Shown one piece after another: positions 1-4,296 of a stretch of DNA of 4,296 nt (its first letter is position 1; each line of letters starts with the position of its first letter). The position numbers and the translations under genes are program-made. The notes beneath the pieces were generated by a model. That model was given only the letters and a program-made list of their open reading frames with translations, ran no database searches and was not told the origin of the DNA. The DNA is taken from the IMG/VR virus record IMGVR_UViG_3300029229_000093, one strand, 5' to 3'. This DNA comes from a virus. Taxonomy: Duplodnaviria; Heunggongvirae; Uroviricota; Caudoviricetes.

Positions 1-24
1 TTTTTGTTTTTATTTTCAACGCAT

Positions 25-54
25 TTGAAGTTCTGGACGGTGCCGGAATAGAAT
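25..54 (+). promoter_or_regulatory. Candidate sigma70 promoter upstream of the first ORF
   Basis: TTGAAG (25-30), 18-bp spacer, TAGAAT (49-54). Sequence match only. Confidence 0.25.
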
Positions 55-132
55 CAAAAATACTTAAGTAGCGCGCAGGGATAAGAGGGATGGTCCCTTA
101 AAGGGGAGAGCTAATTATCCGGAAGGATTCTG

Positions 133-384
133 ATGATGAACATCGAAGAACTGCGTAAAATTTTTTGTGAAGATGGCCTCTATGCTGTGTGCGTTGAAAA
201 TGGAAATATTGTTAGTCATTACCGCATTGTGTGTTTGCAAAAAAATGGGGCTGCGTTAATTAATTTTGTGGATGCCCGAGTGACGGACGGATTTATCTTG
301 CGCGACGGTGAGTTTGTCACTTCATTACAGGTATTGAAAGAGATCGGAATAAAAGCTGGCTTTTCTGCTTTTTCAGAAGAATAA
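133..384 (+). CDS. Hypothetical small prophage protein (83 aa)
   Basis: Intact ORF with ATG at 133 (second ATG at 136) preceded by SD-like GGAAGGA (121-127). Same strand as the downstream phage genes. Size and position resemble small proteins of the Qin nin-like region (possibly rem-like), but I cannot verify this. Confidence 0.55.
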   Translation: MMNIEELRKIFCEDGLYAVCVENGNIVSHYRIVCLQKNGAALINFVDARVTDGFILRDGEFVTSLQVLKEIGIKAGFSAFSEE

Positions 385-450
385 ACTCATCTACAATCTT
401 GCGCGGGGCTGAACTCCCGCTGAGTAACACCGTGCCACCGGAGAAAACCG

Positions 451-730: not shown

Positions 731-1786
731 GTGCGGGTATTACTTCGACCTGTTCTGGTACCGGAACTCGGGCTGGTGATCGTTAAGCCGGGCCGTGAAT
801 CCATGCCGGTATTCCACAATACCCGGGTACTGGTGGAGCCGGAACCGAAAAGCATGCGTAATCTGCCGTCCGGGGTCGTTCCTGCCGTTCGCCAGCCGCT
901 GGCGGAGGATAAATCATTACTGCCATTTTTCAGCGACGAACGAGTGATTCGTGCTGCTGGTGGCGCTGGCGCATTGTCTGACTGGTTACTGCGCCATGTT
1001 AAATCCTGCCAGTGGCCACACGGCGATTATCACCACAGTGAAACCGTCATTCACCGTTATGGTACCGGCGCAATGGTGTTGTGCTGGCACTGCGACAACC
1101 AGCTGCGCGACCAGACCTCCGAATCACTCGGGCAACTTGCTCACCAAAACCTGTCTGCATGGATGATTGACGTCATACGCCATGCAATGAATGGCTCGCA
1201 GGAACGGGAATTATCGCTGGCTGAATTATCCTGGTGGGCGGTCCGCAATCAGGTGGCGGACGCGCTACCGGAAGCGGTATTACGTCGTTCGCTGGGGTTG
1301 CGTGCGGAAAAAATCCGCTCAATGTACCGTGAAAGCGACATCGTACCGGGAGAGCAGACCGCCACCAGCATACTGAAGCAGCGCACAAAAAATCTTGCGC
1401 CGCTGCCTCACGCCCACCAGCAAAACCCGCCACAGGAAGAGACGGTGGTCAGCATTGCCGTTGATCCGGAGTCACCGGCTCAGTATCTCCAGCGCCAGAA
1501 ATCACAACGGGAAGAGATGCCTGTATACACGCGTTGGGTAAAAACGCAGAAATGCATGACGTGTGGCAATCAGGCAGATGATCCGCATCACATCATTGGT
1601 CATGGACTGGGAGGGATGGGAACAAAGGCTGATGATTTGTTTGTTATTCCGCTGTGCCGTAAATGCCATAGCGAACTACACGCCGGGGTAAAAGATTTTG
1701 AAGAAAAACACGGCAGCCAGCTGTTGTTGCTGATTCGTTTTTTAATGCACGCGAGAAATTCGGGTGTTCTGAAGTGGAAAGCATAA
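731..1786 (+). CDS. ydfU: DUF968-family prophage protein (YdfU-like) with C-terminal HNH/zinc-finger-like Cys/His cluster
   Basis: 351-aa ORF. GTG start at 731 with strong SD GGAGG (722-726); alternative ATG at 803. C-terminus carries C-x2-C...HH...C-x2-C-H (CMTCGNQADDPHHIIGHG...CRKCHSELH, about nt 1553-1681). Length and lambdoid context match the E. coli Qin protein YdfU (about 349 aa) from memory. Confidence 0.75.
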   Translation: MRVLLRPVLVPELGLVIVKPGRESMPVFHNTRVLVEPEPKSMRNLPSGVVPAVRQPLAEDKSLLPFFSDERVIRAAGGAGALSDWLLRHVKSCQWPHGDYHHSETVIHRYGTGAMVLCWHCDNQLRDQTSESLGQLAHQNLSAWMIDVIRHAMNGSQERELSLAELSWWAVRNQVADALPEAVLRRSLGLRAEKIRSMYRESDIVPGEQTATSILKQRTKNLAPLPHAHQQNPPQEETVVSIAVDPESPAQYLQRQKSQREEMPVYTRWVKTQKCMTCGNQADDPHHIIGHGLGGMGTKADDLFVIPLCRKCHSELHAGVKDFEEKHGSQLLLLIRFLMHARNSGVLKWKA

Positions 1787-2160
1787 ATGACTGAACGCAT
1801 AGAATTTGTTTTGCCTTNNNNNNNNNNNCGCCAACGGTGAACACTTACTGGCGACGTCGTGGCAGCACATATTTTGTATCAAAAGTCGGTGAGCGTTATC
1901 GCCGTGATGTGGCGCTAATTGTTCGCCAGCAGCGGCTGAAATTAAACCTGTCCGGAAGGCTGGCGATAAAGATTATTGCAGAGCCACCGGATAAGCGCCG
2001 TCGTGACCTGGACAATATCCTGAAGGCACCACTGGATGCGCTGACGCATGCCGGACTACTTATAGACGACGAGCAGTTTGATGAAATCAATATTGTGCGC
2101 GGTCAGCTCGTTCCTGGTGGGCGGCTGGGGATAAAAATCACAGAACTGGAGTGCGCATGA
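1787..2160 (+). CDS. rusA: RusA-family Holliday-junction resolvase, interrupted by an N-run
   Basis: ATG at 1787 abuts the upstream stop (TAAATG) and encodes MTERIEFVLP before the N-run. After the gap the frame reads ...PTVNTYWRRRG...DKRRRDLDNILKAPLDALTHAGLLIDDEQ..., matching the RusA RRRDLDN catalytic region. Stop TGA 2158-2160. The two halves are out of frame across 11 Ns, so the true gap length is probably not 11. Confidence 0.7.
1818..1828. other. Run of 11 ambiguous bases (assembly gap or masked bases)
   Basis: Literal n characters in the sequence, inside the rusA reading frame. Confidence 0.99.
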
Positions 2161-2846
2161 ATAACCAGTATTTACAGTTTGTGCGTGAGCAGCTCATTAT
2201 CGCCACCGCTGATTTGAGTGGGGCAACAAAAGGTCAGCTTGAAGCCTGGCAGGAGAATGCCATGTTCGATACAGGGCGTTACAGGCGTAAAAAAATCCGG
2301 TACCGCGATGAAGTGACCGGAAAAATGATAACGCGGGATAATCCACCAATCCCGGGAAAACAATCGCTGGCGAAGGGGACGTCAATTCCTCTGGTCAGTC
2401 AGGTTGCTTTTTCTACATCATCATGGCGGCGGGCTGTTTTGTCTCTTGAAGAACATCATAAAGCCTGGTTGTTGTGGTGTTACGGCGAGAGTATTTGTTG
2501 GGAATATCAGATCGCGATAACACAGTGGGCGTGGAATGAATTTAATACTCAATCCGGTACCAGAAAAATTGCAGGGAAAACGCAGGAACGCCTGAAAAAA
2601 TTAATCTGGCTGGCTGCACAGGATGTCAGGAGATGGGTTATAGGACATGATATCTACCAGCAACAGGAGCTTGCCCGTCTGTGTGGGATTAAGCCTGACA
2701 ACTGGAGCCACAATTATGTGAGCTACTGGCGTGAAATACTCGACATTTTTATGAACCTCGATACCGAATCTCTGATTTGCACTGTGAAAAGGAGATCTCA
2801 ACAAAAAGCGGCATTTTTGCAGCGAGATATTGCAAAAGTCAATTAG
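2157..2846 (+). CDS. Putative late-gene antitermination protein Q (lambdoid Q family, 229 aa)
   Basis: ATG at 2157 overlaps the rusA stop (ATGA, 2157-2160), with SD GGAG (2147-2150). Stop TAG 2844-2846. Position directly after rusA and directly before a promoter plus short-leader terminator is the classic lambdoid Q-pR'-tR' arrangement. The ORF track also offers an upstream GTG at 2151. Family assignment is by synteny and size, not a verified alignment. Confidence 0.6.
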   Translation: MNNQYLQFVREQLIIATADLSGATKGQLEAWQENAMFDTGRYRRKKIRYRDEVTGKMITRDNPPIPGKQSLAKGTSIPLVSQVAFSTSSWRRAVLSLEEHHKAWLLWCYGESICWEYQIAITQWAWNEFNTQSGTRKIAGKTQERLKKLIWLAAQDVRRWVIGHDIYQQQELARLCGIKPDNWSHNYVSYWREILDIFMNLDTESLICTVKRRSQQKAAFLQRDIAKVN

Positions 2847-2858
2847 ATAGCATATATT
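2830..2858 (+). promoter_or_regulatory. pR'-like late promoter (sigma70 -35/-10)
   Basis: TTGCAA (2830-2835), 17-bp spacer, TATATT (2853-2858). Overlaps the 3' end of the Q ORF. Predicted start near 2865. Confidence 0.45.
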
Positions 2859-2869
2859 TTATGTAAATG

Positions 2870-2878
2870 TGATATATT
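2870..2878 (+). promoter_or_regulatory. Second -10-like element (TGaTATATT): candidate promoter-proximal pause / Q-engagement site, or alternative extended -10 promoter
   Basis: TG (2870-2871) plus TATATT (2873-2878), 20 bp downstream of the first TATATT. Lambdoid late promoters use a -10-like repeat in the early transcribed region for sigma-dependent pausing. Confidence 0.3.
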
Positions 2879-2893
2879 GCTGTAAAGTGTATA

Positions 2894-2920
2894 AACCCGC
2901 TCAAATGTGCGGGTTTTTTG
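2894..2920 (+). terminator. Rho-independent terminator (tR'-like) ending a short late leader RNA
   Basis: Stem AACCCGC (2894-2900) pairs with GCGGGTT (2909-2915) around an 8-nt loop TCAAATGT, followed by a T6 run (2914-2919). Confidence 0.75.
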
Positions 2921-2949
2921 CTTAACTCTGTGGACCTTTTTATCTGTAG

Positions 2950-2975
2950 TTGTAATATATGGATATTGTTACAAT
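2950..2975 (+). promoter_or_regulatory. Inverted repeat TTGTAA/TTACAA overlapping a candidate extended -10 promoter (TGtTACAAT) just upstream of the kinase gene
   Basis: TTGTAA (2950-2955) and TTACAA (2969-2974) are reverse complements separated by 13 bp. TG (2967-2968) plus TACAAT (2970-2975) forms an extended -10, about 7 bp before the kinase SD. Confidence 0.3.
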
Positions 2976-2992
2976 TTAGGTCGGTGAGCTTA

Positions 2993-3757
2993 ATGGAAGA
3001 ACAGCACGGTAATTACTTTATAAAACGAATTCAGTTGATTGGAAGAGGGGCATTTGGCTTTGTTGAACACGTTAAGGTTTACAACCTCAATAAAGGTGAA
3101 TGCGGGGATTATGCTAGAAAGGTTTTAGCACCCGAAAAACCAGAGCTTTTGGCGCAAATAGAGCAGTTTAGAAGGCGTTTTAAAAGGGAGGTTGTGTATC
3201 AATCACATTGCGTACATAGCAATATTGTTCCTATTTATTTGTGCGATTTGTTTGTTGAGAATCCATGGTTCATTATGGATAAAGCAGAATGTGATCTTGA
3301 GCACGAAATAACGAACAACCTTCTTACAACAGATCAAAAAATTTCAATAGTGAAAATGGTATTAGATGGTGTAGCTTACATCCATGCCAAAGGCTATTTA
3401 CACAGAGATATAAAACCCTTTAATGTTTTGCGATTTAGCGACGGAACATACAAGGTGTCTGATTTTGGTCTGGTAAAAGATACGAATCCCGAAGGGGATA
3501 CCACTAAATTGACCGAGATCGGTACCCGTATGGGAAGTACAAGATATATGGCTCCCGAGATTTTATATAATGCAGAGTATTCAGTTAAGACTGATGTTTA
3601 TGCTGTGGGACGGTTAATTGAAGACTTAAATTTAGATGATAAAAAAATAAAGCCTATCATAGCTAAGTGCACAAGGATGGATAAAGATGATAGATATCAG
3701 ACAATAGATGATGTGGCGTTTGATTTTGCGCATTCTTTTTTAAGGAGTGAGTCATGA
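2993..3757 (+). CDS. Eukaryotic-like (Hanks-type) Ser/Thr protein kinase, catalytic domain only (254 aa)
   Basis: Start ATG at 2993 with SD GGTGAG (2983-2988). Read directly: Gly-rich loop IGRGAFGFV (3038-3064), VAIK-type lysine in YARKV (K at 3119-3121), catalytic loop HRDIKPFN (3401-), DFG (3461-3469), APE (3551-3559), subdomain IX Asp in KTDVYAVG. Stop TGA 3755-3757. The longer ORF-track start at 2918 is rejected because it overlaps the terminator. Confidence 0.85.
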   Translation: MEEQHGNYFIKRIQLIGRGAFGFVEHVKVYNLNKGECGDYARKVLAPEKPELLAQIEQFRRRFKREVVYQSHCVHSNIVPIYLCDLFVENPWFIMDKAECDLEHEITNNLLTTDQKISIVKMVLDGVAYIHAKGYLHRDIKPFNVLRFSDGTYKVSDFGLVKDTNPEGDTTKLTEIGTRMGSTRYMAPEILYNAEYSVKTDVYAVGRLIEDLNLDDKKIKPIIAKCTRMDKDDRYQTIDDVAFDFAHSFLRSES

Positions 3758-4296
3758 TTCAGCTGATAGCGACTTCATCATTCTCGTATCCAAAAGAACC
3801 AGGTAGGGTCAACGAAGATTCATTGCTTCCTCCAAAAATTGTAGGAGACGGCGTCTTATTTGCCGTAGCTGATGGTGTAGGTTCATACTCTGGTGCCAGT
3901 TATGCTTCATCCATGGCAATCGCTGAACTTTCAGCATTGACAAGTTTATCTTTTGATGCAGTTCCGAATGTATTTGCTGAAGTTAAGCGAAAAGTTATGT
4001 CGTTAGCTGAAGTTAATGATGAGTTCGATAAAGCTGCTACTACACTTACCTTTTGTTATGTTTGTGATAGCGGAATTATTATTGGTCATATTGGTGATTG
4101 TCGCTTGTATTGCATTGGAGAAAAGAAAGCATATCAATTGACGAAGGACGATACCAGACATCAGATGTTAATTGATCAGAATATTTTTAAACCCAGAGAT
4201 TTGAAGAATAAACCGGGAAAAAATATCTTAACGACTGCCATAGCCTCAAATGTTGATATGGAATACGACTGTGATTTTATCCCGTGGAAAGATTTG
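3754..4296 (+). CDS. PP2C-family (PPM) Ser/Thr protein phosphatase, 5' portion (181 codons, continues past window end)
   Basis: ATG at 3754 overlaps the kinase stop (ATGA), with SD AAGGAG (3742-3747). PP2C motifs read directly: RVNED (motif 1), FAVADGVGS (DGxGG-like, D40/G41 at 3871-3876), TTLT, IGHIGDCRLY (GDSR-like, 4093-4098), LTKDDTRH (LTxDH-like), NILTTAIAS. No stop before 4296. Confidence 0.85.
   Translation, partial: MIQLIATSSFSYPKEPGRVNEDSLLPPKIVGDGVLFAVADGVGSYSGASYASSMAIAELSALTSLSFDAVPNVFAEVKRKVMSLAEVNDEFDKAATTLTFCYVCDSGIIIGHIGDCRLYCIGEKKAYQLTKDDTRHQMLIDQNIFKPRDLKNKPGKNILTTAIASNVDMEYDCDFIPWKDL

What the first reader, a model, noticed from the sequence alone, without database searches (positions are those of the whole stretch)
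2850..4296. Compositional break: the cargo is markedly AT-richer than the phage backbone
By eye, the sequence from the Q 3' end onward is dominated by A/T-rich codons, whereas 400-2800 is GC-balanced to GC-rich. This marks the kinase-phosphatase pair as a horizontally acquired moron of different origin, inserted exactly at the late-promoter junction.
Basis: seen in the sequence. Interest (0 to 1): 0.5.

Follow-up and report, generated by a model that had tools for sequence, protein, structure and literature searches.

The report
AT-rich kinase-phosphatase cassette after phage Q
The drop in G+C after the phage Q gene is real and marks a mobile two-gene cassette (a protein kinase plus its phosphatase) sitting in the prophage slot where Shiga toxin genes sit in other phages; this is an ordinary kind of phage mosaicism, though the cassette's function has not been studied.

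Summary
G+C is 51.1% in 731-2846 and 37.7% in 2993-4296 (p=2e-14). The best change point is near 2733 (plateau 2400-2850). GC3s is 0.28-0.32 in the cargo, 0.45-0.55 in the backbone and 0.56 in host core genes.

The cargo is a catalytically intact Hanks-type Ser/Thr kinase (2993-3757). It overlaps by 4 nt (ATGA) a PP2C phosphatase (3754 onward, cut by the window end).

Cassette-free E. coli prophages with the same backbone place the left junction at 2880/2881, just after the predicted late promoter pR'. The right junction lies about 85 nt past the PP2C stop, and a terminator hairpin sits at each end. The order Q-pR'-tR'-cargo-tRNAs-nanS-p-holin matches the stx slot of phage 933W.

The kinase-PP2C-terminator cassette recurs in other temperate phages of Gammaproteobacteria. 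It is found behind three different Q families, behind Rz, behind N, and behind cI-like repressors.

In 59 of 59 viral contigs it is AT-richer than its flanks (mean -10 points). Its G+C still tracks flank G+C (slope 0.53). Low G+C is therefore a lineage trait of the cassette, not the fingerprint of one donor.

The function is inferred only: probably a kinase-toxin/phosphatase-antidote exclusion or defence module. The compositional finding itself is ordinary.

The parts
2151..2846 (+). Late-gene antiterminator Q (231 aa, Pfam PF06323). It is the last backbone gene, and its 3' third (2622-2846, 43.6% G+C) is a separate mosaic block.
   Evidence: Pfam 282.5 bits. Homology to PPompW phages stops at 2622. 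G+C by thirds.
2733..2734 (.). Maximum-likelihood G+C change point (51.8% to its left within 401-2733, 37.1% to its right). The likelihood plateau spans 2400-2850.
   Evidence: LLR 33.7-40.9 against a shuffle maximum of 8.1.
2830..2858 (+). Predicted late promoter pR': -35 TTGCAA (2830-2835), 17-nt spacer, -10 TATATT (2853-2858). The -35 lies inside the end of Q.
   Evidence: Consensus scan. The sequence is conserved in E24377A, PPompW and E. coli 7/2. The role is inferred from its position after Q.
2873..2878 (+). A second TATATT, a -10-like repeat in the initially transcribed region. It is a candidate sigma-dependent pause / Q-loading element (inferred).
   Evidence: Read from the sequence. 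It is the last stretch conserved with the cassette-free site.
2880..2881 (.). Left junction of the inserted block, relative to the cassette-free prophage of E. coli 7/2.
   Evidence: The local alignment of window 2706-2880 to L100 6200-6374 ends here.
2893..2919 (+). Intrinsic terminator hairpin (AAACCCGC-loop-GCGGGTTT plus a T run): tR' of this Q type, upstream of the cassette.
   Evidence: 1 found, 0.1 expected. The same stem is present in PPompW, which lacks the cassette. Identity between the two E. coli cassette variants jumps from 72-87% to 95-99% across it.
2950..2975 (+). AT-rich inverted repeat TTGTAAT...GTTACAA in the kinase leader, overlapping a TGnTACAAT extended -10-like motif (2967-2975). 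Function unknown.
   Evidence: Fold. One U.G to G-C double change in E24377A. No canonical promoter was called here.
2993..3757 (+). Stand-alone Hanks-type Ser/Thr protein kinase, 254 aa, 37.1% G+C. Shine-Dalgarno GGTGAG at 2983-2988.
   Evidence: Pfam Pkinase 1.5e-33. All catalytic motifs are invariant across 26 homologues. 100% identical copy annotated in E. coli MS 196-1.
3754..4296 (+). PP2C (PPM) Ser/Thr phosphatase, first 181 of 247 codons (runs off the window), 38.3% G+C. Its start overlaps the kinase stop (ATGA). Shine-Dalgarno AGGAG at 3743-3747.
   Evidence: The full-length identical copy L001:12905-13648 matches PP2C_2 at 2.8e-14. Motif residues N20, D22, D40, G41, H112, D115, R117, D195, D233 and D234 are invariant. 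Closest solved relative is PstP 1TXO.
1..400 (+). A second AT-rich block (39.8% G+C) at the left end, containing the rem-like ORF 133-384. It shows that the backbone is itself compositionally mosaic.
   Evidence: Annotated as 'protein Rem' in relatives.

Best explanation
The break is the left edge of a roughly 1.7-kb AT-rich mobile cassette made of kinase, PP2C and a terminator. It sits in the late-operon leader of a lambdoid E. coli prophage, between Q/pR'/tR' and the tRNA-nanS-p-lysis genes. This is the slot that holds stx in phage 933W.

Shown:
- the compositional and codon-usage shift;
- the gene identities and intact catalytic motifs;
- presence/absence junctions against cassette-free relatives;
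- recurrence of the same cassette in several different slots of many temperate phages;
- a family-wide AT offset of about 10 points that still tracks the host's G+C.

The low G+C is therefore a long-standing property of this accessory-gene lineage, not the mark of a recent jump from one low-GC donor.

Inferred mechanism of expression: in an uninduced lysogen, transcripts from pR' stop at the 2893-2919 hairpin. After induction, Q-modified RNA polymerase reads through both hairpins. Kinase and phosphatase then become the first late products, made in fixed ratio through the ATGA translational coupling.

Inferred function (about 0.4): the kinase is a growth-arresting toxin held in check by its cognate phosphatase, giving a phosphorylation-based exclusion or abortive-infection module like KKP, or like rexAB and 933W Stk. 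Relatives are wired as cI-kinase-PP2C operons, which are expressed in lysogens.
For: - Composition.
- Genes and motifs.
- Context: Q-kinase-PP2C-(methyltransferase remnant)-tRNA(CAT)/Arg(TCG)/Arg(TCT)-nanS-p-holin-lysozyme-Rz-terminase. 933W has the same order with stx in the cargo position.
- Empty sites and junctions.
- Rarity of the cassette (50 of 5426 genomes) against the ubiquity of its right flank (2864 of 5426). Another cargo, an ompC-like porin, occupies the same slot in strain E94.
- Same cassette behind Q of PF06530 (Raoultella), PF03589 (Yersinia, Providencia) and PF06323 (Hafnia, E. coli), and in phiES15.
- Same cassette behind Rz in Flotzy and 4 IMG/VR contigs, behind cI-like repressors in 4, and behind N in 1.
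- Same cassette in islands or other prophages of Pseudomonas, Vibrio and Haemophilus.
- PP2C lies immediately downstream in 59 of 62 viral contigs, mostly with a 4-nt overlap.
- A terminator directly follows PP2C in nearly all copies. There is none between cI and the kinase.
- The cassette is AT-richer than its flanks in 59 of 59 contigs (mean -10.3 points). In 42 de-duplicated loci the slope is 0.53, r = 0.74, Wilcoxon p = 2e-8.
- Functional precedent: in KKP the kinases are the toxin and the PP2C is the antitoxin, and the module defends against phage (PMC11341870).
- The kinase matches defence-kinase profiles mad6, PD-T4-6 and Stk2.
Against: - No sigma-70 promoter was detected between the tR' hairpin and the kinase start in this copy or in the Raoultella copy. 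Expression in the lysogen, which a defence role requires, is therefore unsupported here.
- The PADLOC hits cover only the generic kinase domain and score about as well as Pfam Pkinase.
- The cassette differs from KKP in gene order, gene number and domains.
- No paper in the searched library describes this cassette, so the function rests on analogy.
- The two flanking hairpins each resemble the single tR' of different cassette-free relatives. The event may therefore have been recombination between two phages rather than a simple insertion.
Confidence: 0.8

Rival explanations
1. The pair is a lytic-cycle (late) effector, not a lysogen-expressed moron. It would be made only after Q antitermination and would reprogramme host or phage proteins by phosphorylation during late development, lysis timing or counter-defence, as the T7 gp0.7 kinase does early in infection. 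The phosphatase would limit or reset the signal.
For: The cassette lies downstream of pR' and of a terminator, on the late strand, with no own promoter detected. In every lambdoid copy it is co-oriented with the late operon, either right after Q/tR' or right after Rz. stx in the same slot is chiefly Q-dependent (established knowledge; layout).
Against: The same cassette is fused to cI-like repressor operons without an intervening terminator in 4 of 20 diverse viral contigs. It also sits in non-late contexts in Haemophilus, Vibrio and Pseudomonas. Yersinia and Hafnia copies have promoter-like sites between tR' and the kinase. A constant own terminator is the hallmark of an autonomous unit.
Confidence: 0.35
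2. The low G+C is the un-ameliorated fingerprint of a recent transfer from a low-GC donor genome (for example Providencia, Pasteurellaceae or Morganellaceae, 35-41% G+C).
For: Cassette G+C (37-38%) is close to the genomic G+C of such taxa. The offset to the flanks is smallest there: Haemophilus -4, and low-GC viral contigs -6 to -7. Rare codons ATA, AGA and AGG make up 7% of kinase codons.
Against: Even in the lowest-GC contexts the cassette is still below its flanks (59 of 59). Cassette G+C rises with flank G+C (slope 0.53), which indicates long residence in each host range. The closest protein relatives (74-83% identity) are in Raoultella and Cronobacter prophages, with equally AT-rich cassettes in 52-53% G+C flanks. 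The two E. coli variants have already diverged by 1-5%.
Confidence: 0.12
3. The shift is not a real feature. It would be ordinary regional heterogeneity, or a by-product of the amino-acid composition of the two enzymes.
For: About half of the G+C deficit does come from amino-acid composition: the expected G+C with host codon usage is 46-49%, against a host value of 52-53%. Other AT-rich patches exist in the window (1-400) and in the prophage (20-21 kb of L001).
Against: GC3s of 0.28-0.32 lies 5-6 standard deviations below host genes. The change-point LLR is four times the largest value from shuffles. The dinucleotide signature distance of 102 is in the top 5% of host fragments, which average 63 +/- 21. 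The break coincides with independently mapped recombination junctions.
Confidence: 0.03

Closest known systems
Morons of lambdoid phages (concept of Juhala, Hendrix and co-workers from the HK97/HK022 comparison; cited from my own knowledge)
   Same: An extra transcription-unit-sized block present in some but not other otherwise homologous phages. It has sharp junctions in intergenic DNA, deviant (AT-richer) composition and a factor-independent terminator at its 3' end. It occupies the classical slots after Q, after Rz, after cI and after N.
   Different: No own promoter could be detected in this copy. It may be expressed only by Q read-through.
stx locus of Shiga-toxin phage 933W (NC_000924)
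   Same: Same slot and same neighbours: Q, pR', terminator(s), cargo, ileZ-argN-argO-type tRNAs, nanS-p esterase, holin, lysozyme.
   Different: The cargo is a kinase/phosphatase pair placed before the tRNAs instead of a toxin placed after them. The Q family is also different.
KKP kinase-kinase-phosphatase module of Pf and other prophages (Nat Commun 2024, PMC11341870)
   Same: A prophage-borne Hanks kinase plus PF13672 PP2C phosphatase cassette, spread among temperate phages of Gram-negative bacteria. In KKP the kinases are toxic, the PP2C is the antidote, and the module aborts infection by lytic phage.
   Different: KKP is a triplet in the order PP2C-kinase-kinase. Its kinases carry CSD and FHA domains, and it sits mainly in P2, P4, Mu and Pf prophages. 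Here there are two genes in the order kinase-PP2C. The kinase is a bare 254-aa domain, and the hosts are lambdoid phages.
Stk of phage 933W (kinase in the cI/pM operon; reported to exclude HK97, from my own knowledge)
   Same: A eukaryote-like kinase carried by a lambdoid prophage. Four relatives of the present cassette occupy the equivalent position downstream of cI.
   Different: Only 24% identity over 215 residues. Stk is 348 aa, has no partner phosphatase, and was not retrieved by tblastn at 1e-8.
Single-kinase defence genes PD-T4-6 and Stk2, and MADS mad6 (PADLOC models)
   Same: The kinase domain matches their profiles at E = 1e-27 to 6e-40.
   Different: The matches cover only the catalytic domain (query residues 7-208). 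Those proteins are longer (about 290-660 aa) or belong to multi-gene systems that are absent here. None has an adjacent PP2C as a defining part.

Membership tests
Hanks-type (eukaryote-like) Ser/Thr protein kinase, Pfam PF00069 | Profile match above the curated threshold | tested here: met
   116.7 bits against a cut-off of 31.7.
Hanks-type (eukaryote-like) Ser/Thr protein kinase, Pfam PF00069 | Catalytic motifs: glycine loop, ATP-anchoring Lys, alphaC Glu, HRDxKxxN, DFG, APE, and the Asp/Arg of subdomains IX/XI | tested here: met
   G17, G19, G22, K43, E66, H137, R138, D139, K141, N144, D157, F158, G159, E189, D201 and R234 are invariant in 26 homologues.
Hanks-type (eukaryote-like) Ser/Thr protein kinase, Pfam PF00069 | Phosphotransfer activity | not testable with these tools
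   Needs an enzyme assay.
PPM / PP2C protein phosphatase, Pfam PF13672 / PF00481 | Profile match above the curated threshold | tested here: met
   PP2C_2 53.6 bits against 24; PP2C 22.5 against 20.3. The test used the full-length identical copy in L001.
PPM / PP2C protein phosphatase, Pfam PF13672 / PF00481 | Metal-binding acidic residues of motifs 1, 2, 8 and 11, and the GD(S/C)R motif | tested here: met
   RVNED(22), AD(40)G, HIGD(115)CR, SD(195)G and D(233)D(234) are invariant in 25 homologues. Residues after 181 lie outside the window.
Moron (autonomous extra transcription unit in a phage genome) | Present or absent between otherwise homologous phages, with sharp junctions | tested here: met
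   E. coli 7/2 and PPompW lack it. The junctions are at 2880/2881 and about 85 nt past the PP2C stop.
Moron (autonomous extra transcription unit in a phage genome) | Factor-independent terminator at the 3' end | tested here: met
   L001 13719-13742. It is present after PP2C in nearly all copies examined. It lies outside the window.
Moron (autonomous extra transcription unit in a phage genome) | Own promoter | tested here: inconclusive
   None was called in 2920-2992 or in the Raoultella copy. Promoter-like sites are present in the Yersinia copy (10 of 12 matches; 4 found against 0.5 expected) and the Hafnia copy.
Moron (autonomous extra transcription unit in a phage genome) | Composition differs from neighbouring genes | tested here: met
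Moron (autonomous extra transcription unit in a phage genome) | Expressed from the repressed prophage | not testable with these tools
   Needs RNA-seq or 5'-RACE of a lysogen.
KKP kinase-kinase-phosphatase module | Triplet in the order PP2C-kinase-kinase | tested here: not met
   Two genes in the order kinase-PP2C, here and in 59 of 62 viral contigs.
KKP kinase-kinase-phosphatase module | Kinases fused to a cold-shock domain (PfkA) and an FHA domain (PfkB) | tested here: not met
   A 254-aa protein with kinase-domain matches only, Pkinase and the overlapping PK_Tyr_Ser-Thr.
933W Stk-type prophage kinase | Specific sequence relatedness and location in the cI operon | tested here: not met
   24% identity. 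This copy lies after Q, not after cI.
PD-T4-6 / Stk2 / MADS (PADLOC) | Full-length profile match and the system's own gene architecture | tested here: inconclusive
   Strong matches, but to the kinase domain only. No mad genes are adjacent, and the Stk2-type C-terminal region is absent. PD-T4-6 is defined only as a lone kinase.
Stx-phage-type late-region cargo slot | Order Q, pR', tR', cargo, ileZ/argN/argO-type tRNAs, nanS-p, holin, endolysin | tested here: met
   L001 annotation and tRNA scan, compared with 933W.

The most novel reading that the evidence does not exclude
The kinase-PP2C-terminator cassette is a minimal two-gene, phosphorylation-based toxin/antidote (type VII-like) abortive-infection or superinfection-exclusion module. 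It would be a stripped-down relative of KKP that temperate phages of Gammaproteobacteria trade between their classical moron slots (after cI, N, Q and Rz). Its uniformly low G+C would then be functionally relevant, for example keeping it under H-NS-type silencing until infection or induction.
Probability: 0.35. Interest if true: 0.55.

Novelty: new member of a known kind. Interest (0 to 1): 0.3.

Why it matters
The compositional break itself only re-states a well-known rule: phage accessory genes are AT-richer than their backbones.

Three things are useful beyond that.

1. The break led to exact junctions for a cargo cassette in the medically important Q-to-lysis slot, the same slot that carries Shiga toxin genes.
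2. The cassette is a conserved, uncharacterised kinase/phosphatase pair found in roughly 30 sequence clusters across Gammaproteobacteria. Its phage contexts resemble those of known exclusion genes, which makes it a concrete candidate for a simple phosphorylation-based defence or takeover switch.
3. The family-wide AT offset tracks host G+C with a slope of about 0.5. This is a clean example showing that low G+C should not be read as evidence for a recent foreign donor.

Tried and rejected
- The genome-contig scan with the kinase alignment was swamped by generic Hanks kinases, because the back-translated motifs were HRDxKPxN and DFG. Only one true family member was recovered. Context was obtained instead from exact-protein look-ups and the IMG/VR scan.
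- Literature searches for this cassette found no description of it. Only the KKP paper served, as an analogue. Two searches failed on syntax.
- An extended -10 promoter (TGTTACAAT, 2967-2975) was considered as the cassette's own promoter. It was rejected as evidence: there is no -35, the TG is lost in the E24377A variant, and about 0.2-0.3 such motifs are expected by chance.
- Membership in PD-T4-6, Stk2 or MADS was not accepted, because the matches are at domain level only.
- Relatedness to 933W Stk was rejected (24% identity).
- The Rfam scan gave only a sub-threshold Leu_leader match over the terminator (27 against 50 bits), which I take as chance.
- Q has no sequence-detectable solved structure, so the pR'/pause/Q-binding assignments stay inferential.
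- The whole-window source was not found among complete E. coli genomes. The best full-length match to 1-2900 is 92.3%, although 2101-4296 is near-identical to MS 196-1 (100% over 2601-4296, 89-94% in 2401-2600).
- Structure prediction was not run. The sequence motifs already settle the fold and the catalytic competence.
Full report
**1. Observation**

The sliding-window profile shows 52-59% G+C across roughly 400-1700 and 44-51% from about 1500 to 2800. It drops to 35-41% from about 2700 to the end of the window. By segment:

| Segment | G+C |
|---|---|
| 400-2800 | 51.6% |
| 731-2846 | 51.1% |
| 2847-2992 (intergenic) | 32.2% |
| 2993-3757 | 37.1% |
| 3754-4296 | 38.3% |
| 2993-4296 | 37.7% |

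- The contrast between 731-2846 and 2993-4296 gives chi2 = 58, p = 2e-14.
- A likelihood change-point search puts the single best split after 2733. The LLR is 33.7, or 40.9 without the first 400 bases, against a maximum of 8.1 in 200 shuffles. The plateau is flat from about 2400 to 2850.
- Recursive segmentation yields three blocks: 1-400 (39.8%), 401-2733 (51.8%) and 2734-4296 (37.1%).
- The break is therefore real and strong. It begins inside the 3' third of Q and the promoter region, not exactly at 2850.
- The window has a second AT-rich block at its left end.

**2. Codon level and host comparison**

I used 28 core genes from a 50-kb stretch of an E. coli chromosome that carries an identical copy of the cargo.

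| Gene set | GC3s | CAI-like index |
|---|---|---|
| Host core genes | 0.556 +/- 0.047 | 0.695 +/- 0.041 |
| Kinase | 0.316 (z = -5.2) | 0.49 |
| PP2C | 0.280 (z = -5.9) | 0.55 |
| DUF968 | 0.547 | 0.64 |
| RusA | 0.496 | 0.56 |
| Q | 0.449 | 0.55 |

- Within the 25-kb prophage, the two cargo genes have the lowest G+C and GC3s of all 23 genes tabulated.
- Encoding the same two proteins with host codon frequencies would give 46.3% and 48.7% G+C, against the observed 37.1% and 38.3%. Roughly half of the deficit is amino-acid composition and half is synonymous choice.
- The dinucleotide-signature distance to host DNA is 102. Host 1.3-kb fragments average 63 +/- 21, so the cargo is in the top 5%. 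The backbone scores 53.

**3. What the genes are**

- ORF 133-384 is annotated as 'protein Rem' in relatives; 451-729 is a small conserved hypothetical gene.
- 731-1786 is a DUF968/YdfU protein with an HNH-like C-terminus.
- About 1787-2160 is RusA.
- 2151-2846 is a Q antiterminator of Pfam PF06323 (282 bits).
- 2993-3757 is a 254-aa protein kinase (Pkinase, 1.5e-33). The glycine loop, K43, E66, HRDIKPxN, DFG, APE, D201 and R234 are invariant in 26 homologues.
- Its stop overlaps (ATGA) the start of a PP2C phosphatase. The full-length, 100% identical copy matches PF13672, and all metal-binding motifs are conserved. The nearest solved relative is M. tuberculosis PstP.
- Between Q and the kinase lie a promoter-like site (TTGCAA-17-TATATT, 2830-2858) and an intrinsic terminator (2893-2919). 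Only 0.1 terminators are expected by chance in this stretch. I read these as pR' and tR'.

**4. Genomic context**

- Bases 2850-4296 are 100% identical to a chromosomal prophage of E. coli MS 196-1. They occur in 50 of 5426 complete E. coli genomes, always on chromosomes.
- The gene order there is rem..DUF968-RusA-Q-kinase-PP2C-(methyltransferase remnant)-tRNA(CAT, annotated Ile)-tRNA-Arg(TCG)-tRNA-Arg(TCT)-nanS-p esterase-holin-lysozyme-Rz-terminase.
- Phage 933W has the same order, with stxAB as the cargo. The cassette therefore occupies the stx-type slot of the late operon.

**5. Boundaries**

- PPompW-type phages share 1-2622 at 90.6% identity. They diverge in the Q 3' end, share the pR' region and the stem of the hairpin, and then run straight into tRNAs.
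- E. coli 7/2 has the same rem-orf-DUF968-RusA-Q backbone and no cassette.
  - The window aligns with it up to 2880, directly after a second TATATT.
  - The DNA following PP2C aligns with it again from the 3' half of that phage's single terminator hairpin onward.
- In E24377A, which carries a second variant of the cassette, identity to the window is 72-87% across 2400-2900. It jumps to 95-99% from the hairpin onward.
- The right flank (hairpin, small ORF, DNA methyltransferase, tRNAs) is present in 2864 of 5426 genomes without the cassette.
- In strain E94 the same slot holds an ompC-like porin gene.
- The inserted block therefore runs from 2881 to about 85 nt past the PP2C stop, roughly 1.7 kb. 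Each of the two terminators that bracket it has a counterpart acting as the only tR' in a cassette-free relative.

**6. The cassette elsewhere**

- Homologues of both proteins co-occur across Gammaproteobacteria. Examples are Cronobacter, Raoultella, Yersinia, Hafnia, Providencia, Proteus, Xenorhabdus, Aeromonas, Vibrio, Pseudomonas and Pasteurellaceae.
- Exact-protein look-ups show Q-kinase-PP2C-holin in three genera, each with a different Q family:
  - Raoultella, Q of PF06530;
  - Yersinia, Q of PF03589;
  - Hafnia, Q of PF06323.
- Providencia has Q-methyltransferase-kinase-PP2C-holin.
- The inducible Cronobacter phage phiES15 has Q-kinase-PP2C-lysis. Escherichia phage Flotzy has the pair after Rz.
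- In Pseudomonas, Vibrio and Haemophilus the pair sits in islands or other prophage regions.
- An IMG/VR scan gave 62 viral contigs with a family kinase. In 59 of them PP2C follows immediately, mostly with the same 4-nt overlap.
- The upstream neighbour in 20 diverse contigs was as follows:
  - Q: 3;
  - Rz/spanin: 4;
  - a cI-like repressor on the same strand: 4;
  - N: 1;
  - KilA-N, Bro-N, DUF3560 and MT-A70: 1 each;
  - unknown: 4.
- A terminator follows PP2C in almost every copy. There is none between cI and the kinase.
- An exhaustive profile-free search finds only about 30 clusters (at 50% identity) of this stand-alone 250-aa kinase type.

**7. Meaning of the low G+C**

- In 13 genome loci the cassette has 34-44% G+C and is always below its flanks.
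- In 59 of 59 viral contigs it is lower, on average by 10.3 points, with a range of 2.1-17.6.
- In 42 de-duplicated loci, cassette G+C rises with flank G+C (slope 0.53, r = 0.74). The constant offset is -9.4 points (Wilcoxon p = 2e-8).
- This is not what a recent jump from one low-GC donor would give. It fits a long-lived accessory-gene lineage that partly tracks its hosts while staying AT-rich.
- The break is thus a valid flag for a module with its own history, but not evidence for a particular foreign origin.

**8. Mechanism (inferred)**

- Expression. In the repressed prophage, any pR' transcript should stop at 2893-2919. After induction, Q-modified polymerase should read through both hairpins and make the kinase and phosphatase the first late products. 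Translation would be coupled through ATGA. No canonical promoter was detected between the hairpin and the kinase start here or in Raoultella. Yersinia and Hafnia copies do have promoter-like sites there.
- Function. The closest worked example is KKP. There, prophage kinases are toxic, a PF13672 phosphatase is the antidote, and a phage protein that blocks the phosphatase triggers abortive infection (PMC11341870).
- The cI-kinase-PP2C-terminator operons among relatives mirror lambda cI-rexAB and 933W cI...stk (the lambda part is from my own knowledge). This points to a lysogen-expressed exclusion role for the family.
- I put this at about 0.4. A late, Q-dependent host-takeover role is the main rival, at about 0.35.

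**9. Comparison and novelty**

- The cassette is not KKP: it has two genes, the opposite order, and no CSD or FHA domains.
- It is not a relative of 933W Stk (24% identity).
- It matches the PD-T4-6, Stk2 and mad6 profiles only over the kinase domain.
- It is annotated generically in RefSeq and in phage genomes. I found no functional study in the searched library.
- The finding as stated, a compositional break at a phage cargo, is ordinary. The cargo is a new, uncharacterised member of known kinds: a moron, and a prophage kinase/phosphatase module.

**10. Verdict**

  1. The break starts inside Q.
  2. AT-richness is a lineage trait, not a donor signature.
  3. An own promoter is unproven.
- Interest is low to moderate.

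Noticed in passing
window 1818-1828: A run of 11 N sits near the start of rusA. Relatives (E24377A, PPompW) have only 3 bases (ACC) at this position. The run is 8 bases too long and artificially breaks the rusA reading frame, which is why the ORF list shows rusA starting at GTG 1837.
   Followed up: yes
window 1-400: There is a second AT-rich block (39.8% G+C; rem-like ORF 133-384 with GC3s 0.36), just downstream of where hokD lies in relatives. The backbone is therefore compositionally mosaic too.
   Followed up: partly
window 1400-1900 and 2400-2620, against L001/L002/L003: Further mosaic breakpoints lie inside coding regions. Identity to MS 196-1 falls from 100% to 59-70% across the DUF968 3' end and rusA 5' end. 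Identity to E24377A falls to 72-75% in the middle of Q. No complete E. coli genome matches 1-2900 better than 92.3%.
   Followed up: partly
L001 14135-14384 (about 490 nt downstream of the cassette; outside the window): Three phage tRNA genes carry anticodons CAT (annotated Ile, so ATA-reading after lysidine modification), TCG and TCT, as ileZ-argN-argO do in 933W. The kinase is unusually rich in exactly these rare codons: ATA 8, AGA 6 and AGG 4 of 254, or 7.1% against 0.43% in host core genes.
   Followed up: partly
window 2950-2975: An inverted repeat TTGTAAT...GTTACAA lies between tR' and the kinase start and folds as an AU-rich hairpin. The E24377A variant changes both partners of one pair (U.G to G-C). 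It could be an operator or an RNA element. One compensatory change is weak evidence.
   Followed up: partly
L096 1582-2679 (E. coli E94); L097 and L100: The same Q-to-methyltransferase slot holds an ompC-like porin gene on the opposite strand in E94, and nothing in FDAARGOS_1264 and 7/2. Further downstream, the Q-to-holin interval variably carries TerB, DUF3927 and IraM genes. The region is a cargo hot spot.
   Followed up: partly
L116, L117, L126, L131 (IMG/VR contigs), about 3150-5500: In these contigs the kinase-PP2C pair follows a cI-like repressor gene on the same strand (HTH, in two cases with Peptidase_S24). There is no terminator between them and a strong terminator after PP2C. This is the layout of lambda cI-rexAB.
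   Followed up: yes
L001 20001-21000: Another 38% G+C island lies between Rz and the small terminase subunit, with small ORFs including YlcI/YnfO. It is the bor-type moron slot of the same prophage.
   Followed up: no
window 2151-2846: The PF06323-type Q protein has no sequence-detectable relative among solved structures. The only hit is a spurious E = 0.006 match.
   Followed up: no
window 2817-2919: A sub-threshold Rfam match to the Leu operon leader (27.4 bits against a gathering score of 50) covers the pR'-tR' leader. It is probably driven by the terminator hairpin and is a chance match.
   Followed up: no
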